Source: Octopus sinensis | Taxonomy: Eukaryota | DNA: 64,000 nucleotides | Reading direction: 5' to 3' | Assembly (NCBI RefSeq): GCF_006345805.1 | Contig: NC_042997.1 | Coordinates: 159,340,001 to 159,404,000 of the forward strand | Shown: positions 1,501 to 54,119 of the stretch, piece after piece | Numbering within the stretch: the first letter of the stretch is position 1 | Layout: every line of letters begins with the position of its first letter | Notes under the pieces: generated by a model | The model's input: only the letters and a program-made list of their open reading frames with translations | Told to the model about the DNA's origin: nothing | Database searches by the model: none | Made by a program: the position numbers and the translations under genes

Positions 1501-1609
1501 CTGCATATGTGTGTATATATACACACACATTAATACATATGTACATATATATGCATACATGTACACAAATACAAACACATGCACACACATGTATATACAT
1601 GTGTATGTG

Positions 1610-2631
1610 TGTAACAACATCAAAAGAGGATTAACCGGGAAGATAGTTTTCATGTGCAGCAGATGCACATGGGCAATAAGCTCCACAGATGCTCAGGAAA
1701 CAGATTCCATCACATGCCAGGGGGAGAAACTAGTTGATAGCTTCTGCTACCTAGGTGACCAAGTCTGTAGTGGGGGTGGATGCTCAGAGAGTGTTACCAC
1801 TAAATAAGAATAACCTGGCAAAGTTCAGAAAGCTTCTACCCCTACTGGTGACAAAGGGTCTCTCACTCAGAGTGAAAGGTAGATTGTATGACGCATGTAT
1901 GCAAATTGCCATGCTTCACTGAAGTGAAACATGGGCCACGACTGCTGAAGACATGCATAAGCCTGAAAAAAATGAAGTTAGCATGATTCACTAGATGTGT
2001 AATGTCAGCATGCACACATGACAGAGTGTAAGCGCCCCAAGAGAAATGTTGGATATAAGAAGCAGCGGATATGGTGTACAAGATAGACGTCTGCATTGGT
2101 ATGCTCATGTACTACAGATGGATGAGGAGAGCTGTGTGAAGAAGTGCCATTCCCAAAGAGTTGAAGGAATCCAGAGTAGAGGGAGACCCAGGAAGACATG
2201 GAATGAGGTGGTGAAGCATGACCTTCGAATGTTGGGCCTCACAGAGGCAATAACAAAAGACGAGTCCTCTGGCGATATGCTGTGACTGAGAAGACCCGGC
2301 AAATAAAGTTAGTTCACAGCTGTAACCTACACCAGTGTCACATAACCAGCCCACTCAAAAGTACCTTGGATCGTAGGGCAACATGCTGTGCTTGAGGAGA
2401 CCTACTGAGTCAAATCAAAATCAAATAGAAATTGTAGTTGTGATCCCCATGCCAGTGGCACGTAAAAAGCACCCACAACACTCTCAGAGTAGTTAGCATT
2501 AGAAAGGGCATCCAGCTGTAGAAACACTGCCAGATCAGACTGGAACCTGGTGCAGCCTCCTGGCTTTCCTGACCCCAGTCGAACCGTCCAACCCATGCCA
2601 GTATGGAAAACAGACATTAAATGATGATGAT
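1610..2631 (+). mobile_element. 5'-truncated, decayed RTE-clade LINE (family of the 46.5 kb copy)
   Basis: Translates to ...VFMCSRC...KLVDSFCYLGD...RRLHWYAHV...RGRPRKTWNEVVKHDLR; ends in the shared 3' terminus and a (GAT)n tail; contains stops and frameshifts. Confidence 0.92.
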
Positions 2632-6320: not shown

Positions 6321-8249
6321 CCAACATATACACAAATACACATACATGCATATATATGTGTGTGTATGAGTCGATATATATATATATATATATAAATAAT
6401 CTTTCAAAACATATAAAGAGATACATTCCAAAGCAAGAGTCTACAAAAGTGCTCAATAAACTAATGTTTAGAGCTTTATATTATGTCGACAAACTAAGTG
6501 AAATAAAACTTCTAAGACTGTGTTGATAGGCAGAGACATTACTGTCATTAACAAATTTATTTTGCAGTCACATGATTTCAAGTTCAGTTCCACTGAATGG
6601 CATTTTGGGCATGTGCCTTCTACAATAGTCCTGACATAACCAATACTTTGTGAATGAATTTGGTAAACAAAAACTGTGCTAAAGCCTTTCACAGAGTGAG
6701 AGAGAGTTCATACTACAAAGAGGGCTGCAGGGTTATTTACACATTGAGGATAAAAGTTTGCATATTTAATGCATGCATGTAAATTTTACAGCTTACACAT
6801 GTACACGGTCTATCAGGTAGTACTAGGAAGAGTCATAACCAATGACTTATGTAACAGAATAATCATCAGCTGTTACAAGAGCAAAGAAAATTTTCTGAAA
6901 AGAAGCAATTATAGGAACATAACACTAATGGAACAAGTCATTGAAAGGAACAAAAAGAATTATAGACCTGATTAGGAAGAGAATTAATTAAGGTGAATCA
7001 GTGCCAGGACAGGGGACCTTTTATATCCTCTTTCTTGTGAGACAATTACAGAAGTTCAGAGCACGCCATTATATCTTGTCAAATCTTGAGCCCTCAACTT
7101 CTAATAGTCAAAGGAGTACTAGCATCACATATAGCATGTCTTGGGACAGTTTTTAGACTGAATAGAGACTGCTTCTCACTAGGTCTGATCACAAGTAATT
7201 TCTTCCAGAAAAAGAAACAGACAGAAAGAATCAATCTCAGTGCAGTCCTAGTACTTTATCAATAGATCCTTCCCCACAAAAAAAACCCAAAAAAACATGA
7301 ACAGCTAAGTCAACTACAACAGTATTTGAACTCAGAGTACAAATAGTTGGAACAAATCTCACAAGGCAATTTATTCGATGACCTAATGACTCAATCAATT
7401 TACTATCTATCTTGAGCTCATAAACCAAATGCAAAACATCCTCCCAACATTTATTCCCTGTGTGAACCATTCATCTCTGCAACAACACTTCCACAAATTC
7501 CCATTGAAACTATAAATCAAAAAAGTAAATTTAAGAGAAACTGCCAGAGCAAAAATAACAACAATAACAATATCAAAGATGATAATAACACTAATAATAA
7601 CATAATATACAATGAAATTAAAAGATTGGTAAATAGGCAAGCACTAATTCATATTCTTTTGTTGATTTATGTGTAAGTGAATATTTTACTAACAAAACAA
7701 AATAAAGTTCATTATTTGAATGATTTCAAACTTAACAGATCGATCAAACAGTATTTAGACGTTTGGTACAAGAGTGTGAGGAAGATATTATTACATATAG
7801 TTAAAGCAAACTCAGATGCTAATTCCCTTGGTGATGATCAGTCTTCTGTGAGGAAACAAAGAGTTCTATCAAAGAGTAAAAATTTAGCAGTGTGTGCGAA
7901 CAAGAAACATCATAACCTGGAAGGAAGGAAGGAGGGGAAATTGATGGATGGCAGGATTGGTAGAATGGCAGACAAAATCCCTAATAACAGTCAGTTACAT
8001 CCTTTTCCTTTCTGAGTTCAATTCCTGCAAGAGTTGACTTGCTGTGTGGAATCTATAAATTATGTACCAGTCAAGCACTGGATTTACTGTGATTAATATA
8101 CCCCATCTCCCAAATTTCTGGCCTAGTGTCAATACAAAAAGTTATCATCATCATCATCACCCTTATTATTATTGTTATTATTATCATCATTATTATTTTT
8201 CATATTGCTATCATTATCATCATCATCATAATTATGATCATTATTATCA

Positions 8250-9172
8250 TCATCGTTTAACATCTGCTTTCCATGCTAGCATGGGTTGGATGGTTTGACT
8301 GAGGACTGGTGAGCCAGAGGCTGCACCAGGCTCAATCTGATCTGGCAAAGTTTCTACAGCTGGATGCCATTCCTAATGCCAACCCCTCCGAGAGTATAGT
8401 GGGTGCTTTTATGTGCCACCGGCATGAGGTTCCAGTCAGGTGGTTCTGGCAATGACCACTCTCAAAAGGTATTTTTACATGTTACCTGCACAGAAGCCAG
8501 TCCAGCACAACTGGCAATGACCATGCTCGAATGTTGTTTTTCACGTGCCACCAGCACATGTGCTGGCAAGGCAACGCAAGCAACGATCACGCTTGAATAG
8601 TGCTTTTCACGTGTCACCGGCATGGGAGCCAATCTGTGGCCCTTGGCAACGATCACGCTTGGATGTACTTTTAACGTTCAACTGGCACAAATGCCAATCA
8701 GGCAGTACTGTCATCGCCATGTCAGCGATTTTGATTTGTTTACATTTGCCTCAATAGGTCTTCGCAAGCAAAGTTCACTGTCCAATGAATGAGAGGTTCT
8801 CGTAAGTGTGCCAGTTACACCCCATGTTCGGATGTGCTTTTAACATTCCACAGGCATGAGTGCCAATTAGGTGGTACAGTCATTGGCCATGTCAGCAATT
8901 TTGATTTTGATTTCACTTGCCTCAATAGGTCTTCACAAGCAAAGTTTATTGTCCAATGAATGAGGGGCATCCATAAGTGGACTGGTTGCACCCACTGGCA
9001 TAGGCCATGGGCTATGGTCTCACTTGGCTTGTCAGGTCTTCTCAAGCACAGCATATCTCCCAAAAGGTTGTGTTTCACCACCTCATCCCAGGTTTTCCTG
9101 GGTCTACCTCTTCCACAGATTTCCTCAACAGCTACGGTGTGACACTTTTTCACACAGCTGTCCTCATTCATC
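8250..9172 (-). mobile_element. 5'-truncated RTE LINE: ORF C-terminus plus 3' UTR hairpin-unit array
   Basis: Minus-strand EDSCVKKCHTVAVE..GRGRPRKTWDEVVKH; five ~60-nt units; ~175-bp internal UTR duplication; tail merges into (CAT/TAT)n. Confidence 0.88.
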
Positions 9173-18156: not shown

Positions 18157-18870
18157 AATGCATGTGGCTTAGTGGTTAGAGTAGTTAGCTCACAACCATA
18201 AGGTCACAAGTTCGATTCCCAGCAGTGTGTTGTATCTTTGAGCAAGACACTTTACTTCACATTGCTCCAGTCCACTTAGCTGATAAAAGTGAGTTGTCCT
18301 AGTAATTCAAAGGGTCGGCTATGTTGCATTCTGTGAGGCAATGAATCTTCCTGAGAACTACATTAAGGCAGCAAGCTTGCAGAAACGTTAGCACGCCGGG
18401 TGAAATGTTTAGCGGTATTTCATCTGCTGTTACATTCTGAGTTCAAATTCCTCCGAGGTCGACTTTGCCTTTCATCCTTTTGGGTCGATAAATTAAGTAC
18501 CAGTTACACCCTGGTTGGGTTCGATGTAATCAAATTAATCTGTTTGTCTGTCCTTGTTTGTTTCCTCTGTGTTTAGCCCCTTGTGGGTAGTAAAGAAATA
18601 GGTATTTCGTCTGTCTTTACGTTCTGAGTTCAAATTCCGCCGAGGTCGACTTTGTCTTTCATCCTTCCGGGGTCGATAAATTAAGTACCAGTTACGCACT
18701 GGGGTTGATGTAATCGACAATCTGTTTGTCTGTCCTTGTTTGTCTCCTCGGTGTTTAGCCCCTTGTAGGTAGTAAAGAAATCTGTATGTGTTTGTGAAGT
18801 GCTCAGCTACTTGCACACTAACTTCATGAGCAGGCTGTTCTGTTGATCAAATCAACTGGAACACTTGCAT
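18157..18870 (+). mobile_element. SINE family C interrupted by a partially duplicated family B SINE (18367-18780)
   Basis: tRNA-like head TGGCTTAGTGGTTAGAG...AGTTCGATTCC; the B body GGTATTTCGTCTG...GTAAAGAAAT occurs twice in tandem. Confidence 0.82.
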
Positions 18871-21310: not shown

Positions 21311-21712
21311 TCTTTTCTCTTTTACTCTTTTACTTGTTTCAGTCATTTGACTGCAGCCATGCTGGAGCACCGCCTTTAGTCGAGCAAATCGACCCCGGGA
21401 CTTATTCTTTGTAAGCCCAGTACTTATTCTCTCAGTCTCTTTTGCCGAACCGCTAAGTGACAGCGACGTAAACACACCAGCATCGGTTGTCAAGCAATGC
21501 TAGAGGGACAAACACAGACACACAAACATATACATACACATATATACATATATACGACAGGCTCCTTTCAGTTTCCGTCTACCAAATCCACTCACAAGGC
21601 ATTGGTCGGCCCGAGGCTATAGCAGAAGACACTTGCTCAAGATGCCACGCAGTGGGACTGAACCCAGAACCATGTGGTTGGTAGGCAAGCTACTTACCAC
21701 ACAGCCACTCCT
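21311..21712 (-). mobile_element. tRNA-derived SINE, family A (full length)
   Basis: Close reverse complement of 24531-24939. Confidence 0.9.
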
Positions 21713-21803: not shown

Positions 21804-22362
21804 TGTTGAGGCAAGTGAAATCAAATCAAAATCAAATCAAATTCGATGACTGGCATCCGTGCTAGCAGGGTGCAAAGAGCACCATTTGAGTGTGATCATT
21901 GACAGAGCGGCTAACTGGCTTCAGTATCAGTGGCACTTGAAAGGCACCATTCGAGCATGATCGTTACCAGCGTCGCCTTACTGGCACTCAAGCCCCGTGC
22001 TAGTAGTGTATTAAGAGCACCATCCGAGCATGATCGTTGCCAGAGCGGCTATCTGGTCTTCATGCTGGTGGCACGTAAAAGATACCATTCGAGCGTGATC
22101 ATTACCAGCATCGCCTTACTAGCACCTGTGCCGGTGGCATGTGTAAAAGATTCAAGCGAGGTCGTTGCCAGTACTGCCTGACTGGCCCCGTGCCAGTGCC
22201 ACATAAAAGCACCCACTACACTCTCGGAGTGGTTGGCATTAGGAAGAGCATCCAGCTGTAGAAACTCTGCCAGATCAAGATTGAATCTGGTTCACCAGCC
22301 CTCAGTCATTCGTCCAACCCATGCTAGCATAGAAAGCAGACGTTAAATGATGATGATGATGA
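21804..22362 (+). mobile_element. RTE 3' UTR with five hairpin units and (GAT)n tail
   Basis: tgttgaggcaagtgaaatc start as in the 47.8 kb copy; repeated CACCATTCGAGC..GATCGTT.CCAG-loop-CTGGC..GTGCCGGTGGCAC units; common terminus. Confidence 0.85.
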
Positions 22363-23263
22363 TATGACGAGCTTCTTTCAGTTTCCATCTACAAAATCCA
22401 CTCACAAGGCTTTGGTTGGCCTGAGGCTTTAGTAGAAGACACTCGCCCAAGTGGGACTGAACCCAGGACCATGTGGTTGGTAAGCAAGCTACTTACCACA
22501 CAGCCACTCCTGTACCTTTATTCATTTATATGTATGTGTGTATGTGTTTACTCCCTAGTCTGTACTAATTGTTATATTCTTGTCATTTTTCAATAAACCT
22601 TCCCGTTATGTATATATATGTTTGTATATATATGTATGTTTATATATGTATATGTATGTATATATATGTAAACATATAAAATAACTAAGACCAGTGAATA
22701 ACATTAATATATACATAAAAGCAAAATACAAATTGTCACTGACTAATCAGGAGAAATGAAATGGGTGAAGGACATCAGTGAAGTAAATGGATGATATACA
22801 GTAAATATTTTAAACAAAGAATCACAATGTAAATTGGTGAAGGGGAAGCAGGGAGAAGTGATGAAAGTAGAGAGACAGGAATATGGGTGTCAACAGAAGA
22901 GGCAGATATGTTAAATACAATGAAAGACAGGCAGAAGTGAGAGATAGAAAATGAGAAAGATAAAGAAAAGAGCTACTGAATGACAGAGTGAAACACTGCT
23001 AAAGTTATGTTTTAATAACTTATCAATACAGAGGAGTTAAATATATTTTCATTTATTTGGAAATGTGGTGAATTATAGATCATTATGCTATGAAATAGAG
23101 GTCTGAAAATTTTGTTTGCTTTTACACAGATATTAGTCTAAATAAGGTAACAGCCGCTGATCAACATGAAATATATGTTCTGGGTTTAAGTTTACACACA
23201 CACATGCATATATATATATATATATATCTACATACACATAGATATGTTATCCAAAGTGTATAG

Positions 23264-26139: not shown

Positions 26140-26565
26140 GAGCGCTAACAGCTCCATCCAAGCGGGATCACTGCCAGAGCAGCTGTCTGGCATGTAAAGA
26201 GCACCATTTGAGCGCGATCGTTGTTAGTGTCACCTCACTGGCACTTGTACCAGTGGCACATGAACAAAACATTTGAGCGAGGTCATTGCCAGTGCTGCTA
26301 GTCTGACTCCTGTGAAGTTGGCACATGAAAAAGACCATTTTCGAGCGTGGCCATTACCAGTACCACCAGACTGGCCCTCGTGCCGGTGGCACGTAAAAGC
26401 ACCCACTACACTCTCAGAGTGGTTGGCGTTAGGAAGGGCATCCAGCTGTAGAAACTCTGCCAGATCAGATTGGAGCCTGGCACAGCCATCTGGTTCGCCA
26501 GTCCTCAGTCAAATTACCCAACCCATGCTAGCATGGAAAGCGGATGTTAAACGATGATGATGATG
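26140..26565 (+). mobile_element. RTE 3' UTR fragment with four hairpin units
   Basis: Same units and terminus as 21804-22362. Confidence 0.85.
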
Positions 26566-27734
26566 ACATAAATAAAGGTATTTACAATATTGACTAATAT
26601 CTATAGATATATTCAGACAAGGAAGTTTATAACATCACTGATGCCCCATCTCAACAAGGTACCATGTGGATGCCTGGGTCTTTCAGTATCTCAGCCTTGC
26701 AATCACTGCTGGGTTTTGGACTACCTCAAAAATTTACCATTCTGTGTTATTTTCCCATCCTGATGTTATTAGGTGATACAGTGTTGGAAACATGAACCAG
26801 CTGTTAATTCAATACTGTACTTGCTTTTAAATAGACACCAAATTATTTTGTTAATCAAAAGCAGTCGTAAACAAAACATGGAAAAATAGAAAAGAATACA
26901 GAGAATATATTTTACATGAAAATAAAGCTGTTATTTCATGAAATAATTAGTATTGATTATTGTCATGGTAAAATAATTACGGTCATGGCCAAAATAATAA
27001 CGGACAGCTGGTTTAGTTTCAATACAATGTTTGTCATAATTATTGTCATCATTAACAGCCTCTACATATATATTTAACTGTACAAGTATTGACTGAACAG
27101 GTCAGTAGTAAATTCACAAGCTTGTTTAACTAGTGCAAATAAGTTTATTTGTCTATGTTGTAGTTTATTCACCACTTAGTGTTGATCAAGGTATTCTAGG
27201 CATAACATCCTTTACTTTTGTAAATCCAGTGTGTCCTGCCTATGTAAAAAATTTTAAATGGCAAGGTGTGATTTGAGGGAGATTTGACAGCCATCTAAGC
27301 AGGTCAAACAAAAACATGGACACTTTCTTGTTGGTTCCTCAAGCTTAGTTCTGTGATCCACTGTTTTATCGACTTGCTTTGAGCAGGCTTCATTCACCAG
27401 ACTGACACAACCGAGATGTTGCTCCAACTGATGTTCCAATCCTCTTATACTGGAAGCCTTTTGACTGAATGCTCTGTTTTCAATCAAAAGAAAGCCAGTG
27501 ACATGAATTTAAATCATGAATGTGAAAAGCTTGAACAGATACTGAAAGGCGTCGCTTCTGACACTAACAATTCCACTAATCAATTTCAAATAAAAAGATG
27601 AAAGACAAAGATGATCTCAGCAGGATTTGGAATCAGAGTCCAGACAGATAGAACAAATACAAGAAATTAATTCTATGCAAAGCTCAAATGACTCAGCCCA
27701 ACACTACCTTTAGTGTTTGAGTGTGTGTGTGTGC

Positions 27735-30069: not shown

Positions 30070-30500
30070 AGTACCATATGAGTGTGATCGTTGCCAGAGC
30101 AACAAACTGGCCTCCGTGCCGGTAGCACGTAAAATGCACCATTCGAGCGTGATCATTACCTGCAACACCTTACTGGCACTTGTGCTGGTGGCACATGCAA
30201 AAAACATTCAAGCGAGGTCATTGCCAGTGCTGCTGGACTGGCTCCTGTGCAGGTGGCACATAAAAAGCACCATTTGAGCATGCCCATTGCCAGTACCGCT
30301 TGACTGGCCCTATTGCTAGTGGCACGTAAAAGCACCCACTACACTCTCGGAGTGGTTGGCGTTAAGAAGGGCATCAAGCTGTAGAAACTCTGCTAGATCA
30401 GATTGGAGTCTGGTGCAGCCATCTAGTTCACCAGATCTCAGTCAAATCGTCCAACCCATGCTAGCATGGAAAGCAGACGTTAAACAATGATGATGATGAT
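30070..30500 (+). mobile_element. RTE 3' UTR fragment with four hairpin units
   Basis: Units GCCAG-loop-CTGGC..GTGCCGGTRGCAC..AAAA.GCACC; common terminus and (GAT)n. Confidence 0.87.
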
Positions 30501-43990: not shown

Positions 43991-45393
43991 TGATGTATCA
44001 CTGATAATGATAAAGTCACTACTGCTGCTGTTGATGATGATGATAATGTCACTGATGATGATGAGATGATATAATGGTTGAAATGTTATCAATTTCCCAG
44101 TAGTCAAACGAACGACCACCCAGAGACAAATTACAGTAACTCAACAGTCTGTTGAAAGGCTGATCTATTAATGCCTGAGCTTTCACTTGTAATGCTTTTC
44201 AGCTGAGTGGACTGAAACCACATGAAATGAAGTGCCTTGCTAAGGATACAACATGCTACACACTTTGAGAACTGACCTCATGACCTTATGTCCGTGAGCC
44301 CAACACCTAAACCACCATGTTATACATGTTCACAAACTTATGAATAGGTAAGGGTAAAACTTACATAAATTTAAATAGGGTTGATATCAAAGAGGGGCAA
44401 TGCAGCTTCATAGCTAACCAGATCCTGTCTGTCAAACCATCCAACCCATACCGGCATAGAAAACAGACATTAACTGATGATGATGATGAAGTGTTCGACG
44501 GGTCATTTAGAGTGATCATCAATTGCTGGAATGTGTGTCCAAAAAGATGCGTTGGTTAAATTTATGGCGCTAGCATTTGACACTATGACCAATGTATTGA
44601 GTAGAACAAGGTGGTTACGGATGGCTTTGTTAATTCATACATCTGATCAAAGTCTACAATGTAAAGAAAACATTGAGAAAACAAATATCATGATGACAAT
44701 TAAGATGATTATCAAGATGTAATGATATCATTGTTGTTTAGCTCCGGATCTCCCCAATCAGAGCTGACCTGGGGCTTACAACAATGAACCATATAGGATA
44801 GTAAGGCATGATTTAAGAAGATCTGGCTGCTATTTCTAGTGTAATGACATCATTGTTGCTTAGCTCCAGATCTCCCCAATCAGAGCTGACCTGGGGCTTA
44901 CAACAATGACCATATAGGATAGTAAGGCATGATTTAAGGAGATCTGGCTGCTATTTCTAGTGTAATGACATCATTGTTGTTTAGTTCCAGATCTCCCCAA
45001 TCAGGGCTGACCTGGAGCTTACAACAATGACCATATAGGATAGTAAGGCATGATTTAAGAAGATCTGGCTGCTATTTCTAGTTGATTGAACAATTAATTA
45101 TAATGATTATAACGATGTTGTTGTTGTTGTCATTTCCACCCAGGTGAAACAAAGACAGTAAGGTATGATTTAAAGAGATCTGGCAGCTATTTTTAGCTGG
45201 TTGAACAACCATGTATTAGGTCCCTGGTTGATGTCAAGAGTAATAGTGTTGTTGTTAATGATGTATCACTGATAATGATAATGTCACTACTGCTGCTGCT
45301 GCTGATGATGATGAGATGATATAACAGTTGAAATGTTATCAATTTCCGAGTAGTCAAACCAACGACCACCCAGAGACAAATTACAGTAACTCA
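43991..45393. repeat. Local direct duplication (43991-44143 and 45259-45393)
   Basis: tgatgtatcactgataatgataa...aacgaccacccagagacaaattacagtaactca is present twice. Confidence 0.85.
44718..45081. repeat. 121-bp tandem repeat x3 derived from dispersed repeat family D
   Basis: Units start at 44718, 44840 and 44961. They contain the gatttggctgctatttctag-type motif also found near 14130, 16195, 18930, 34700, 39440, 59890 and 62470. Confidence 0.9.
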
Positions 45394-46122: not shown

Positions 46123-46550
46123 GACAATGATGATGAGGATTGCAACAATCCTGATGATAATAGGCGGTGCTGCTGTATCAATGAGGATGGTAATGAGGAA
46201 CTGCCAAAGAATGAATTGGTGTATATTTTTTTAGTTGTTTTTTTTGGTCTTCCTACTAACAATACATTGACTTATAAGCCTTAAAATTAATCATTCAATT
46301 TTGTCTTGTAAAAGAAATAACAGGTAATACTAACTGGAAGTGGTTATTATTACTTTTGTTTCGTTGTTTCATTAAAAATCGGTCAGGATAAGAAAAATTG
46401 ATCGCAAAAGATACATTAGCAAATTACCCTTCATTAGGAGTAATTGACTATTTTTTATTTCTTATCAGTAATATCTTCATGATTTTTATCAGAAAAATGA
46501 GGAAGAAGTAGCAATAAATATATATGTGTGTGTGTATATATATATATATA

Positions 46551-47717
46551 TCCCTTATCTGGTGGTCAATGAGGAAACTAGGGATAGATGAATGGTTAGT
46601 GAGAGCTGTGCAAGCCATGTACAGAGACGCTGCTAGTAAGGTGAGGGTTGGCAACGAGTACAGTGAAGAATTCCGGGTAGAGGTTGGGGTCCACCAAGGT
46701 TCAGTCCTCAGTCCCCTCCTATTTATCATAGTCCTCCAGGCAATAACGGAGGAATTCAAGACAGGATGCCCCTGGGAGCTCCTCTATGCTGACGACCTTG
46801 CTCTAATTGCTGAGTCACTATCAGAACTGGAGGAGAAGTTTCAGGTGTGGAAACAAGGATTAGAATCGAAGGGCCTTAGAATCAACCTAGCCAAAACCAA
46901 AGTCCTAATAAGTAGGAAGGTGGACCAATGACAAACGACTTCAGGTAGATGGCCCTGCTCGATCTGTAAAAAAGGTGTAGGTAGAAACTCTATAAGGTGC
47001 ACCAAGTGTAAGCTATGGACACATAAGAGGTGCAGCAATGTCAAAGGAAGGCTAACTAGGAAAATAGTTTTTGTCTGTGGCAGATGCTCAGGAGCAATAA
47101 ACACTGGAAATGTGCAGAGACCAACTTCTACCACGTTCCAGGGAGACAAACTAGAAGTAGTTGATAGCTTCCGCTACCTAGGTGGGTGTGCTGAAAGTGT
47201 AACTGCTAGAGTAAGAATAGCTTGGGCAAAGTTTAGAGAGCTCTTACCCCTGCTGGTGACAAAAGGCCTCTCGCTCAGAGTAAAAGGCAGACTGTATGAT
47301 GCATGTGTACGTACAGCCATGCTACATGGTAGTGAAACATGGGCCGTGACTGCTGAGGATATGCGTAAGCTTGCAAGAAATGAAGCCAGTATGCTCCGAT
47401 GGATGTGTAATGTCAGTGTTCATAATCGTCAGAGTGTAAGTACCTTGAGAGAAAAGTTGAACCTAAGAAGCGTCAATTGTGGTGTGCAAGAGAGACGGCT
47501 GCGCTGGTATGGTCATGTGACGAGAATGGCTGTAGATAGTTGTGTGCAAAAGTGCTACACCCTAGCAGTTGAGGGAACCTGTGGAAGAGGTAGACCCAGG
47601 AAAACCTGGGACGAGGTGGTGAAGCACGACCTTCGAACTTTAGGTCTCACCAAGGAAATGACTAGAGACCGAGACCTATGGAAGTATGCTGTGCGTGAGA
47701 AGACCCGGCAAGAGTAG
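46551..47717 (+). pseudogene. RTE-clade LINE ORF2, C-terminal ~390 codons (RT plus PHD-like insert), one in-frame stop
   Basis: GVHQGSVLSPLLF, ELLYADDLAL, NLAKTKVL, VDSFRYLG, MLHGSETWA, RRLRWYGHV and RGRPRKTW in one frame; TGA at 46929-46931; 5' end abuts (TA)n. Confidence 0.95.
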
Positions 47718-49575
47718 TCAGGCCGTAACCCGTGGCCCCTACCTGGGACGTAGTCAGTCCACCTGTGCATACCTTCCTTCTTGTGAAACTTGTGAAGACC
47801 TGTTGAGGCAAGTGAAAGTGAAAATCAAAATAAAATAGATGATCATCAATGGAATTTGTATCTTTGTTACCAGTGCCGGTGGCACACAAGAAAACCATCC
47901 GAACGTGGCCGTAGCCAATACCGCATCGACTGGCCTCCGTGCTGTGGGCACATAGCAAACACCATCCGATCGTGGCCGTTCGCCAGCCTCATCTGGCACC
48001 TGTGTCGGTGGCACATAAACACACCATCCGAAGACCCGGCAAGACTAGTCAGGCTATAACCCGTGGCCCCTACCTGGGACGTAGTCAGTTCACCTGTGCA
48101 TACCTCCCTTCTTGTGACACTTGTGAAGACCTGTTGAGGCAAGTGAAAATCAAAAAAATCAAAACAAATCGAAATAGATGAATATCAATGGAATTTGTAT
48201 CTTTGTGGTACCAGTGCCGGTGGCACACAAGAAAACCATCCGAACGTGGCCGTAGCCAGTACTGCATCAACTGGCCTCCGTGCTGTGGGCACGTAACAAA
48301 CACCATCCGATCGTGGCCGTTCGCCAGCCCCATCCGGCACCTGTGTCGGTGGCACATAAAAACACCATCCGAAGACCCGGCAAGACTAGTCAGGCCATAA
48401 TCCGTGGTCCCAACCTGGGACGTAGTCAGTCCACCTGTGCATACCTTCCTTCTTGTGACACTTGTGAAGACCTTTTGAGGCAAGTGAAAGTGAAAATCAA
48501 AATAAAATAGATGAACATCAATGGAATTTGTATCTTTATGGTACCAGTGCCGGTGGCACACAGAAAACCATCCGAACGTGGCCGTAGCCAGTACGCATCG
48601 ACTGGCCTCCGTGCTGTGGGCACGTAACAAACACCATCCGATCATGTCCGTTCGCCAGCCTCATCAGGCACCTGTGTCGGTGGCACATAAAAACACCATC
48701 TGAAGACCCGGCAAGACTAGTCAGGCCATAACCCGTGGCCCCTACCTGGGACGTAGTCAGTCCACCTGTGCATACCTTCCTTCTTGTGACACTTGTGAAG
48801 ACCTGTTGAGACAAGTGATCAAATCAAATCAAATCAAAATAGATGAACATCAATGGAATTTGTATCTTTGTGGTACCAGTGCCGGTGGCACACAGAAAAC
48901 CATCCGAACGTGGCCGTAGCCAGTACCGCATCGACTGGCCTCCGTGCTGTGGGCACGTAACAAACACCATCCATCTGGCACCTGTGTCGGTGGCACATAA
49001 AAACACCATCCGAGCGTGGCCGTTCGCCAGCCTCATCAGGCACCTGTGTCGGTGGCACATAAAAACACCATCCGAGCGTGGCCGTTCGCCAGCCTCGTCT
49101 GGCACCTGTGTCGGTGGCACATAAAAACACCATCCGAGCGTGGCCGTTCGCCAGCCTCATCTGGCACCTGTGTGGAGACACATAAAAACATCATCCGAAG
49201 ACCCGGCAAGACTAGTCAGGCCATAATCCGTGGTCCCAACCTGGGACGTAGTCAGTTCACCTGTGCATACCTTCCTTCTTGTGACACTTGTGAAGACCTG
49301 TTGAGGCAAGTGAAAATCAAAATAAAATAGATGATCATCAATGGAATTTGTATCTTTGTGGTACCAGTGCCGGTGGCACACAAGAAAACCATCCGAACGT
49401 GGCCGTAGCCAGTACCGCATCGACTGGCCTCCGTGCTGTGGCACGTAACAAACACCATCCGATCGTGGCCGTTCGTCAGCCTCGTCTGGCACCTGTGTCG
49501 GTGGCACATAAAAACACCATCCGAGCGTGGCCGTTCGCCAGCCTCGTCTGGCACCTGTGTCGGTGGCACATAAAA
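47699..49575 (+). repeat. Five-unit tandem amplification of the RTE stop codon/3' UTR region with nested ~60-nt subunits
   Basis: Units begin gaagacccggcaag at 47699, 48030, 48371, 48702 and 49197 (periods 331, 341, 331, 495). Confidence 0.93.
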
Positions 49576-49748
49576 TCACCCACTACACTCTCGGAGTGGT
49601 TGGCGTTAGGAAGGGCATCCAGCTGTAGAAACACTGCCAGATCTGACTGGCCTGGTGCAGCCTTCGGGCTCCCCAGACCCCAGTTGAACCGTCCAACCCA
49701 TGCTAGCATGGAAAGCGGACGTTAAATGATGATGATGATGATGATGAT
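49575..49748 (+). mobile_element. RTE 3' terminus with (GAT)n tail
   Basis: CACCCACTACACTCTCGGAGTGGTTGGCGTTAGGAAGGGCATCCAGCTGTAGAAAC...CATGCTAGCATGGAAAGCGGACGTTAAAT(GAT)n. Confidence 0.93.
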
Positions 49749-50911: not shown

Positions 50912-51152
50912 TCTCCCCTTTTAGTTTTTGCTTTTGGGGAAGCAAGTAATTTTATTTTATTTTATCGCCCCTCCCACCTCCCTTTGAGTTTTTTTTTTTT
51001 TTTCTACAACTTAATTTTTTCTTACATTGTTTACATTCGACGGATATTTGTCTTCATCTTGTTTGTTGTTAACGCAATGTTTTGGCTAATATACCCTCCT
51101 TCTTCAGCTGTCTTGGGGAAATTTCAAATCTGGGTTCTCATTCCTAAGGTTC

Positions 51153-51980
51153 TCATCCATACAATTCAGAATGGAAAAGGAAAAAGACAATCAGCTGGCA
51201 TTCCTGGACTTATTAATAACACGCACCAAGTATGGATTCATGACATCCGTATACCACAAGCCAAACTTTACTGGACGATACCTCAACTTCAATTCCCAAC
51301 ATCCATACAGTGTAAAGTGAGGGATTGCTCAATGCCTCAAACATCGTGCAAAGAATATAAGTAGCGATCATGATACACACCACGAAGAAATGATCAAGCT
51401 CAATAACGATCTGTTAAGCAACAACAAGTACCCCAAAAGTTCACTATCCACTCCAATTATGAAGAAGAGAGAGGATGAGGCAAATAAACTGTCCATAGTC
51501 TGTCTACCCTATGTGAAAGGCCTCTCCGAAAAGATACAAAAGATATGCAGCCCATATGACATCAGGACAGTATTCAAGAGTAATACAACACTTCACAAAT
51601 ATCTCCTTCGAGTAAAACCACCAACAGAAGAGAATATGACCAAAGACTGCATGTACTCCATCCCATGCAGCTGTGGTAGGTTATACAAAGGTGAAACATG
51701 TCGCCCCCTCAAAATAAGGGTAGACAAACCTCGCAAGGCTGTGACACAAGGAGATATTGATAAATCGGGTATAGCTGATCATGTGTGGAAAAATGGAGAC
51801 CACCTCCTCCTGTGGGATGAAGTTAAAATAATAGACAGAAAATACCACTGGAAAATACGAAAACTAAAAGAAGCAGCACATATGCTAGGATACAACAACC
51901 TCCTAAGCAGACCGAGTGCAGTTATGAGCAGCATATGGGAACCGGTATTAAGGAATGATAGGAGAATATTAGATTTATAA
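51153..51980 (+). pseudogene. Penelope-like RT C-terminus/thumb plus GIY-YIG endonuclease
   Basis: IQFRMEKEKDNQLAFLD, SVYHKPNFTGRYLNFNSQHP, LPYVKGLSE, MYSIPCSCGRLYKGETCRPL, SGIADH and RKLKEA in one frame, with TGA at 51318-51320. Confidence 0.9.
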
Positions 51981-52009
51981 GCCTTAAAATTCACTCCATA
52001 ATTGCCCAC

Positions 52010-52082
52010 GGGTATATGGCGTAGTAGTTAAGAGTGCGGGCTACTAACCCCAAGATTCCGAGTTTGATTCCAAGCAGTGACC
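52010..52082 (+). other. tRNA-derived Pol III promoter module (SINE-head-like) followed by (AAT)n
   Basis: A box TGGCGTAGTAG, 7-nt anticodon-like loop CTACTAA closed by GGG/CCC, B box GAGTTTGATTCC; acceptor stem is poor. Confidence 0.7.
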
Positions 52083-52186
52083 TGAACAATAATAATAATA
52101 ATAATGATAATAATAATAATAATAATAATAATAATAGTATTGAAAAATACCTTCGGAATGAGAACCCAGGTTCGAAATTGCCCCAA

Positions 52187-52232
52187 GACACCTGAAGAAG
52201 GCTGGAGGGTATATCAGCTGAAACATTGTGTT
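52187..52232 (+). ncRNA. Minimal type I hammerhead ribozyme-like motif in the pLTR (probably decayed)
   Basis: Stem I GACAC/GTGTT; core CTGAAGA+A; stem II GGCTGG/TCAGCT; GAAAC-ATT (one G>A from palindromic GAAACGTT). Confidence 0.65.
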
Positions 52233-54119
52233 AACAACAAACAAGATGAGGACAAATATCCATCGAATGCAATTAATGTACATAATTCCTCATCTCTTAA
52301 ATATAGAACTATAATTTTTTTTCTTTTTGGCATCTATTTTTAGGAACTCTGAGTTCTTCCTTTTTCTTCCACTTGTACACATAGTCAACCACCTGTAACA
52401 GTGTTGGTACCTGAAATGTATCATACAGCAATTCCATAGGTACTTATAATCTGTTTGGTTCATTTTCTATGAATCTCTTCTTTAATTGGTTTCTGTGTCT
52501 TTTTCCAGTACCTTTTAGCCATATATCAGTGCACCGTCTCATGTTGAATATGTTTATGTCTTGGTGTTTTTCCGTACCAAACTTTTTTTTTTTGTTTTCT
52601 TTTGTTGACCATAGTATATTTTTTTGTTTCAGTTCTTTGACTTCATTTGAGCCTTTGACCATCCCAACTACATTTTCCACAGAGACTGTTCTTTATCTCT
52701 TCTTTCATTATATTGAGAAACACTCATTCTTCAATAGTATCATTTAAGGTATGTGATGAGTAGTGTTAAATTATTGTGGTTTAAATATTACAATGATGAT
52801 GATAATGATAATTAATGGCTGTAGAAGCAACTGCATGGTTAAAAAGTTTACTTTGCAACCTTGTGTTTTAGGTTCAATCCTACTCCATAGTGTCTTCAGC
52901 AAGTGGTTTTTTGTAACAGCCTTCTACCATAGTTTTTTTCTACTATAGCTTTTAAGTACATCAAAGCCTTGCAAGTGAAATTTGGTACACAAAAATTGTT
53001 CAAAAGTCAAAATACCTTAGAAGCGATTGCTCCAGTTTTGGGGTAATAAACTAAGCTTAATGCCAACACCTGGCTCTTGAGTACTGTTAACCAACTCCAC
53101 TCTGTGGATTTGGTTATAAGTACTCAAGCAAGCATCCAAGCCAAGACTCTAGTCTGAAGGTAACTTCCTCCTACAATTCAGAGAGATCTTGAAAAGGAAC
53201 ATGGAAACTTTCCTTCCTCCCTTGACGGTAAGAGCCAGTCATCACTAGAAGCTGAGTATGGCTTGGTAACAAGTACCATGCTTTCATTAATTGTTTTAGG
53301 TGCTTCTACAACCATGAACAAACACAGACATGCTCTCATTTCTTCCACCCTTTAAACCCAACAGTGTATAACAGGTGTGACAGATGGATGGGGAGAGAGA
53401 GCTGCATAACCTTTCTCAAGGGCATATGTGCCGTCCAATTCAGGAAATGACTATGGCATTATGATTGTGAGCCAAACAACCTAACTACAAAGCCACTTTT
53501 TTTTTTATTTATGCACCCTTTTCAAGCCTAGCCAGGCCCATGAGCCCGGTTTCCCGGTTTCTGTGGCTTATGTGTTCCCCCCAGCTGGACGGGACGCCAG
53601 TCCATTGCAGCATTACTCAAGAAACAGGAAGAAAGAGTGAGAGAAATTTGGGACAAAAGAGTACAACAGGAGTCACCATCACCCCCTATAAATTAAATAT
53701 CATTGTTAGATAAAAGACAATATTAAAATCTTGATTAGCTAGAAGCATGTAAAATATTTAAGAATGTTTCCAAATGAAATTAGGTTTTATAACTAAATAA
53801 TATATTTGAAGATATTGCATGACGTGACAAAAAAGTTATAATCCTCGTGATATATGAGAAAGTATACCGGACAAATAGCATGCTGTCTTGTGATAGCATT
53901 CTATTTGCTTAAAGCTACTTACATCTGAGAAGAAAGTCTTATTGGTATTTCATGCTGAACATTGCAAATACTAATGTCAGCAACAAGAAAGTATTGTTTG
54001 AGAAAAAAAAAATAAATAAAATGCTTCAAATAATTTACTTTTATGTAATATACTTCAGATATTTAATCTGGTTTTAAGACTTTGTTTCTCTTTCTCTTCT
54101 TTCACTAACTGGATATTAA

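What the first reader, a model, noticed from the sequence alone, without database searches (positions are those of the whole stretch)
21850..22215. RTE LINE 3' UTR carries an ordered array of ~60-nt hairpin units with a constant scaffold and variable loops
Seen: five independent insertions (8400-8720 minus, 21850-22215, 26150-26405, 30070-30335, 47870-49575) contain tandem units of the form CACCATTCGAGCGTG-ATCGTT-GCCAG-[6-11 nt]-CTGGC-nnn-GTGCCGGTGGCAC-GTAAAA(G). The GCCAG/CTGGC stem is mostly retained while the loop changes. At 30 kb the loops are AGCAACAAA, CAACACCTTA, TGCTGCTGGA, TACCGCTTGA. At 26 kb they are AGCAGCTGT, TGTCACCTCA, TGCTGCTAGT, TACCACCAGA. At 22 kb they are AGCGGCTAA, CGTCGCCTTA, AGCGGCTAT, CATCGCCTTA, TACTGCCTGA. 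Loop classes keep a similar 5'-to-3' order, with a TACYRCCTGA-like loop nearest the terminus in four copies; the 47-49 kb subfamily uses other loops (TACCGCATCGA, CCTCAT). The 1.6-2.6 kb copy has no array. Inference: this is a modular, polarised repeat-and-variable-loop RNA array evolving inside a LINE. It could be multiplied ORF2-recognition signals, processed small RNAs, or a decoy or guide-like cassette. I know of no description of it, but cannot search.
Basis: partly seen in the sequence, partly recalled or inferred. Interest (0 to 1): 0.75.

Follow-up and report, generated by a model that had tools for sequence, protein, structure and literature searches.

The report
Self-inflating repeat tail of octopus LINE
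The tail of a very common jumping gene, likely from an octopus, carries one to several copies of a 65-base unit that likely arose by repeated copying slips next to the element's conserved end; the 'variable loops' are mutated descendants of one ancestral loop passed down in fixed order, not captured guides.

Summary
The units, loops and order are real, but the five insertions are not independent: each inherits its array from a subfamily master of an endonuclease-RT (RTE-type) LINE with about 90 tails per Mb. 1021 of 1045 units fall into 25 inherited classes. Loops are homologous to each other and, between orthologous units, diverge at the ORF2 synonymous rate (7/39 vs 13/91). The terminal 88 nt are constrained (2/87). 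The GCCAG/CTGGC stem changes about five times less than the loop, but none of its 6-7 changes is compensated and 5 of 25 masters have a broken stem. The unit likely descends from a 158-nt duplication of the ORF2 end plus UTR. The same UTR has duplicated again at periods of 25 to 331 nt; one young lineage carries 1-8 copies of a 331-bp block. Six of seven long duplications end just after one small predicted pseudoknot. Verdict: a VNTR-like expansion zone, like the SVA VNTR; guide, decoy and small-RNA readings are unsupported. This scan has already noted pseudoknot arrays and tail-derived satellites in LINE tails on other DNA of this genome.

The parts
21804..21858 (+). 5'-truncated start of the focal LINE copy: 3' UTR spacer with (AAATC)n run and a loop-less remnant of the hairpin
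21859..21923 (+). Unit 1 (loop AGCGGCTAA; stem and module decayed), class S22_d350
21924..21989 (+). Unit 2 (loop CGTCGCCTTA), class S22_d285
21997..22061 (+). Unit 3 (loop AGCGGCTAT), class S22_d212; units 3-4 are a 138-nt duplicate of units 1-2
22062..22127 (+). Unit 4 (loop CATCGCCTTA), class S22_d147
22128..22189 (+). Unit 5 (loop TACTGCCTGA, the only perfect stem of this copy), class S22_d81; likely a fusion of two ancestral units
22190..22213 (+). Terminal copy of the 25-nt module (predicted H-type pseudoknot; this copy has private changes)
22214..22346 (+). Conserved terminal domain of the LINE, likely the ORF2p recognition region
22347..22364 (+). (ATG)n tail
8240..8760 (-). Copy of subfamily S8: four full units (8427-8688), a partial distal one, module and terminal domain
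26146..26569 (+). Copy of the S30-like lineage: four units (the first two joined by a deletion) and terminal domain
30070..30500 (+). Copy of subfamily S30: four units and terminal domain
46550..47717 (+). 3' part of ORF2 of the young S47 copy (RT domain, PHD-like finger; one in-frame stop at 46929-46931)
47699..49575 (+). Five tandem 331-bp blocks (ORF2 end + spacer + units) holding 13 full units
49576..49747 (+). Terminal domain and (ATG)n tail of the S47 copy
1609..2631 (+). Copy with ORF2 end, one module (from 2449) and terminal domain but no 65-nt unit

Best explanation
The array is a variable tandem-repeat zone in the 3' UTR of a high-copy endonuclease-RT LINE; it likely grew by repeated microhomology-guided duplication of the stretch just upstream of the conserved terminal domain, which is likely the real handle for the element's enzyme. 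Shown: inheritance of unit order from subfamily masters, homology of the loops, neutral-rate divergence of orthologous units, strong constraint on the terminal 88 nt, duplications at many periods, copy-number change among near-identical young copies. Inferred: the 65-nt unit is a shortened 158-nt duplication of ORF2 end plus UTR; hairpin and module are paralogues of one ~25-nt motif; upstream units are redundant passengers with at most weak constraint on the stem; new junctions form preferentially at the 3' edge of the module.
For: 1021 of 1045 full units match 25 position-specific classes at 80% or more; window copies map to them in order. Loops: nearest-neighbour similarity 0.80 vs 0.51 +/- 0.03, 0 of 500 shuffles reach it. 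Orthologous S30-S8 units 32/260, loops 7/39, ORF2 fourfold sites 13/91 (p 0.72 and 0.60), terminal 88 nt 2/87 (p 0.005); S94-S47 units 19/127, loops 4/16, fourfold 33/145, terminal 5/86 (p 0.0008). The oldest sampled subfamily S83b has no 65-nt unit but a 158-nt duplication whose junction reads module + ORF2 end, matching the unit linker; an ~88-nt intermediate stands in L316. Other periods: 25, 98, 152, 167, 138, ~190, 331. 27 S47 copies with 0-8 differences in 450 nt of ORF2 carry 1-8 blocks, with position-specific variants and in-register gains and losses. No compensated stem change.
Against: The stem is far colder than neutral drift predicts: 6-7 changes in 10 columns against a loop rate of 3.3-4.1 per column, permutation p about 2e-4; 19 of 25 masters keep it perfect, and 0/20 stem sites differ in S94-S47 (p 0.014). 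Post-insertion mutability does not explain this (non-CpG 0.044 stem vs 0.067 loop). Fourfold sites of a LINE may not be fully neutral. Nine subfamilies were sampled, each by the best hits to one query.
Confidence: 0.68

Rival explanations
1. The units are multiplied functional hairpins kept by weak selection on the element, for example extra ORF2p-binding sites or blocks to RNA decay; the loop is free, the stem is read.
For: Stem 0.6-0.7 changes per column, p about 2e-4; of the 14 masters within 152 nt of the terminal domain only S22_d147 has a broken stem, against 4 broken and 1 wobble among the 11 distal ones; all 9 sampled subfamilies keep one or more hairpin copies near the end.
Against: 0 compensated changes; 5 of 25 master stems are broken and still amplified; 4/40 stem differences in S30-S8, not below fourfold sites (p 0.58); predicted pairing in context 0.00-0.99; the S83b lineage, best hit for 62 of 209 unselected tails, has no 65-nt unit.
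Confidence: 0.22
2. On mechanism only: all gains and losses happen in DNA after insertion (replication slippage or unequal exchange), as reported for the SVA VNTR, and the reverse transcriptase plays no part.
For: PMC4432496 (abstract, passages) found DNA-level, microhomology-driven remodelling and no change in de novo integrants. In-register block duplications occur within single S47 copies (L324, L332, L333). Short microhomologies lie at the junctions.
Against: 6 of 7 long duplications end at module positions 15-35 of a 65-nt period (binomial 0.006 with a window chosen afterwards); block number varies 3-8 among copies with 0-8 ORF2 differences in 450 nt, which needs a very high DNA-level rate.
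Confidence: 0.5
3. The loops are guides, decoys or processed small RNAs (a repeat-spacer cassette).
For: Repeat-plus-variable-segment look and fixed order.
Against: Loops descend from one ancestral loop, evolve at the synonymous rate, are 6-11 nt long, and are homogenised in young lineages; no Rfam family reaches its threshold on any unit.
Confidence: 0.03

Closest known systems
VNTR domain of SVA/LAVA retrotransposons (Lupan et al. 2015, PMC4432496; abstract and passages read)
   Same: Ordered, subfamily-specific arrays of short repeat-unit variants inside a non-LTR retrotransposon; new units made by fusion across unit borders; microhomology at breakpoints; copy-number variation.
   Different: SVA is non-autonomous, primate-specific, with a central GC-rich VNTR. 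Here the array is in the 3' UTR of an autonomous endonuclease-RT LINE, is partly built from the ORF2 end, holds a short stem, and has nested periods up to 331 bp.
Hypervariable 3' UTR repeats of Ty3/gypsy Ogre elements (Macas et al. 2009; seen only as a reference title and table row in PMC6947457)
   Same: A retrotransposon 3' UTR that generates tandem repeats.
   Different: LTR elements of plants; the paper itself was not read.
Octopus RTE LINEs of Petrosino et al. 2022 (PMC9115989; passages read)
   Same: Single-ORF endonuclease-RT LINE of the RTE clade with recent activity in octopus.
   Different: RTE-2_OV has a C2H2 finger and a 3' UTR made mostly of microsatellite, so it is another family.
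Snail/Nin-DC SINE domain (Matetovici et al. 2016, PMC4758252; section 11 part 1, passages and a supplement search)
   Same: By eye, about 13 of 16 bases around the A-rich part of the module, and a later short GT-rich word, resemble the gastropod consensus lines shown.
   Different: Short resemblance, no alignment or statistic run; there the domain is single and central in tRNA SINEs.

Membership tests
RTE-clade LINE | Single ORF with AP-like endonuclease and RT | tested here: met
   Long copy L340: Exo_endo_phos and RVT_1 in two overlapping frames; window RVT_1; no separate ORF1 among frames of 120 aa or more in three long copies.
RTE-clade LINE | 3' end in a short tandem repeat rather than poly(A) | tested here: met
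   (ATG)n tail in all nine subfamily alignments.
RTE-clade LINE | RT phylogeny places it in the RTE clade | not tested
VNTR-like retrotransposon domain (works like the SVA VNTR) | Ordered, subfamily-specific unit variants | tested here: met
   25 position-specific classes hold 1021 of 1045 units.
VNTR-like retrotransposon domain (works like the SVA VNTR) | Copy-number variation among close copies | tested here: met
   1-8 blocks in 27 S47 copies.
[quoted passage not shown]
   Needs orthologous copies in a second genome or de novo integrants.
SVA/LAVA family itself | Alu-like, VNTR and SINE-R composite, non-autonomous | tested here: not met
   The element encodes its own endonuclease-RT.
Repeat-spacer guide array | Spacers unrelated to each other, taken from foreign sequence | tested here: not met
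   Loops are homologous and drift at the synonymous rate.
Conserved structured RNA unit | Compensatory changes in the stem | tested here: not met
   0 of 6-7 changes compensated, 1 wobble; power is low. One compensated pair is visible in the terminal hairpin of S63.
Known ribozyme or small-RNA family | Rfam match at gathering score | tested here: not met
   None of 130 matches reaches its threshold; only one (E 4.9) touches a unit array.
H-type pseudoknot (25-nt module) | Two interleaved helices supported by covariation or probing | tested here: inconclusive
   The pairing can be drawn; position 5 takes all four bases in terminal copies; position 10 is G in 270 of 290 main-family copies and C in 12 of 25 older ones, which fits a slid helix border; no true compensated pair.
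Deu/Nin-DC SINE domain | Significant alignment to the domain consensus | not tested
   Resemblance by eye only.

The most novel reading that the evidence does not exclude
This LINE inflates its own 3' UTR: its reverse transcriptase repeatedly re-primes at the 3' edge of a small pseudoknot (for instance by jumping onto RNAs trimmed back to that knot), so new repeat periods are born at one structural landmark, tails grow from 0.6 to 3 kb within a lineage, and selection keeps the hairpin stems as extra protein-binding or decay-blocking sites.
Probability: 0.18. Interest if true: 0.65.

Novelty: new variant of a known kind. Interest (0 to 1): 0.36.

Why it matters
It is a well-resolved case of how tandem repeats are born, reshaped and inherited inside an autonomous LINE that supplies on the order of 10^5 tails in this genome. 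It marks the constrained terminal ~90-190 nt as the candidate ORF2p recognition signal of an RTE-type element. If the clustering of duplication ends reflects reverse-transcriptase re-priming at an RNA structure, it would tie RNA folding to satellite birth and can be tested with a tagged element. It is not a guide-RNA system.

Tried and rejected
Rfam scan of the window: nothing relevant. Exact scan of metagenome contigs for the module: 0 matches, no evidence on distribution. Sequencing runs: no RNA holder listed, all contigs, so ends, strand and small RNAs could not be read; laying four runs showed cover of the stretch in four coded organisms and the 331-bp back-joint in one contig of run X1. 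5' truncation mapping: the peak at the last module is confounded by unrepresented older families (62 of 209 best hits to S83b at 78% identity), not used for RT pausing. Naive column-pair scan: 65 'pairable' pairs, those shown dominated by near-invariant columns, no usable covariation. The first old-versus-main split was too loose and was redone. The first loop alignment misplaced the 6-nt loops; realigned counts lower the loop rate from 4.1 to 3.3-3.6 and its p to 0.01-0.08. A pooled ratio suggesting loops at 1.9 times the synonymous rate reused the same changes and fell to neutral in the cleaner contrasts. My recalled idea that the terminal domain holds the Meta-SINE domain found no support: three motifs were absent from the searchable supplement of PMC4824008 (file 1 not searchable). 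Likeness to pistol, twister, HDV or hammerhead ribozymes was considered from memory and dropped: the parts do not fit and Rfam gave no hit. Longer stretches for S37 and S94 were not obtained, so their 5' parts are unexamined.

Full report
Observation. A profile built from 708 seed units finds 34 hits in the window and none in five shuffled windows. The focal copy has five units of 62-66 nt (21859-22189), a last 24-nt module, a terminal domain and an (ATG)n tail. Perfect GCCAG/CTGGC stems occur in 6 of 17 units of the four older copies and 8 of 13 at 47-49 kb.

The element. Upstream of the 47-kb array lies an RT fragment (RVT_1, E 3e-16); a long copy has endonuclease and RT domains. In 100 evenly spaced 10-kb stretches of large contigs there are 91 terminal-domain hits, 54 of which reach the array junction; scaled to 2.72 Gb this is roughly 10^5 copies, older sister families included. 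The organism is likely an octopus (inference from genome size and repeat types; not established). The label RTE rests on architecture; no RT tree was built.

The five copies are not independent. Nine searches of the genome gave nine subfamily sets of 10-28 copies (my labels S30, S22, S94, S83, S8, S47, S37, S63, S83b). Each set shares one array; 1021 of 1045 full units match 25 position-specific classes at 80% or more, and the window copies map onto them in order. On the unit tree the units of S30, S8 and S22 group by position. The loop order is therefore inherited.

The loops are homologous. The 21 distinct master loops have nearest-neighbour similarity 0.80 against 0.51 +/- 0.03 in shuffles, 0 of 500 reaching it; the 6-nt loops are deletions of the 11-nt ones. 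Between orthologous units they change at the rate of ORF2 fourfold sites: 7/39 vs 13/91 (S30-S8) and 4/16 vs 33/145 (S94-S47). Whole units give 32/260 and 19/127, while the terminal 88 nt give 2/87 and 5/86 (p 0.005 and 0.0008). The constraint sits at the end of the element, where one compensated pair is visible in S63.

The stem is the open point. On 25 master units it shows 6-7 changes in 10 columns, the loop 36-41 in 10-11, the linker 1.7-1.9 and the 4-nt tail 4.5-5.5 per column; the stem is low at p about 2e-4 by column permutation. Post-insertion mutability is similar across regions at non-CpG sites (0.044-0.093). But no change is compensated, one gives a wobble, and 5 of 25 masters carry broken stems, four of them distal. 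In S30-S8 the stem is not below fourfold sites (4/40); in S94-S47 it is (0/20, p 0.014). Predicted pairing in context ranges from 0.00 to 0.99, because the two arm words recur in both orientations. The test is partly circular. I read this as weak constraint at most.

Origin. The oldest sampled subfamily has no 65-nt unit; it has a 158-nt duplication of ORF2 end plus UTR whose junction reads module then ORF2 sequence. The unit linker matches that junction and its 3' half matches the post-stop hairpin; locus L316 holds an ~88-nt intermediate. Shortening by deletion is inferred. In S83b the hairpin itself looks like a copy of the 25-nt module, and an older sister family repeats the module alone two to four times. 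Further duplications have periods 98, 138, ~190, 152, 167 and 331. Among 27 S47 copies (dropped: L326 no anchor, L336 mis-anchored, three duplicates) the 331-bp block stands 1-8 times and the 3' UTR spans 0.6-3.0 kb, though 450 nt of ORF2 differ by only 0-8 bases; variants are position-specific, with in-register gains and losses in single copies. The block junction also occurs in one contig of an independent run, so it is not an assembly artefact.

Mechanism. Six of seven long duplications end at module positions 15, 15, 24, 28, 28 and ~35; the seventh ends at the unit end. Binomial p is 0.006 with a window chosen afterwards. The module can be drawn as an H-type pseudoknot; evidence is inconclusive. 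[quoted passage not shown] I cannot separate the two here. I commit to microhomology-guided duplication with a preferred 3' end, the upstream units being redundant, and give RT re-priming at the knot under one chance in five together with selected stems.

Known and new. The closest described case is the SVA/LAVA VNTR; Ogre 3' UTR repeats are a second (title and table row only). Nine searches listed no paper that describes this array. Read: PMC9115989 (passages), PMC4758252 (passages, section 11 part 1, supplement search), PMC4824008 (passages, supplement search), PMC5786205 (part 1 of 5), PMC13282606 (part 1 of 3), PMC4432496 (abstract, passages), PMC6947457 and PMC8857657 (passages). Repbase and Dfam were not searchable. 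Earlier notes of this scan (none by sequence) describe a pseudoknot-module array, a 69-nt tail repeat grown into satellites and a 140-nt ORF-end repeat in LINE tails elsewhere in this genome; they are unchecked and fit the same tendency. Verdict: real, new variant of a known kind, moderate interest.

Noticed in passing
L330 and L340, about 4.0-3.4 kb upstream of the ORF2 end: The 5' UTR of long S47 copies also carries a tandem duplication of roughly 0.6 kb (by eye), like promoter monomers.
   Followed up: no
window 46956-47087: PHD-like finger inside ORF2 after the RT core (Pfam 23.3 bits, just under the cut-off of 24).
   Followed up: no
S63 set (L271-L295) versus S94 set (L186-L205): Terminal 88 nt differ at 1 of 87 sites although ORF2 fourfold sites differ at 33 of 68, which suggests a tail swap between subfamilies.
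   Followed up: partly
L003, L026, L085, L331: An older sister family has ~99-nt duplications that end just after the second stem-plus-A-rich module of the terminal domain, the same pattern as at the first module.
   Followed up: partly
L189 (+ strand, near 2900-2970): Three tandem 25-nt modules whose core reads like the hairpin loop of the 65-nt units, supporting a common origin of module and loop.
   Followed up: partly
window 51023-52280: A 219-aa open frame (51321-51980) with no Pfam hit, between inverted repeats at 51023-51166 and 52133-52280; from memory it resembles the endonuclease end of a Penelope-like element.
   Followed up: no
window 44718-45082 and 18414-18781: Tandem repeats of period 121 (3 copies, 95%) and 182 (2 copies) of other repeat families.
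   Followed up: no
window 21557-21712 and 22366-22512: Two similar copies of another short repeat flank the focal LINE fragment (by eye).
   Followed up: no
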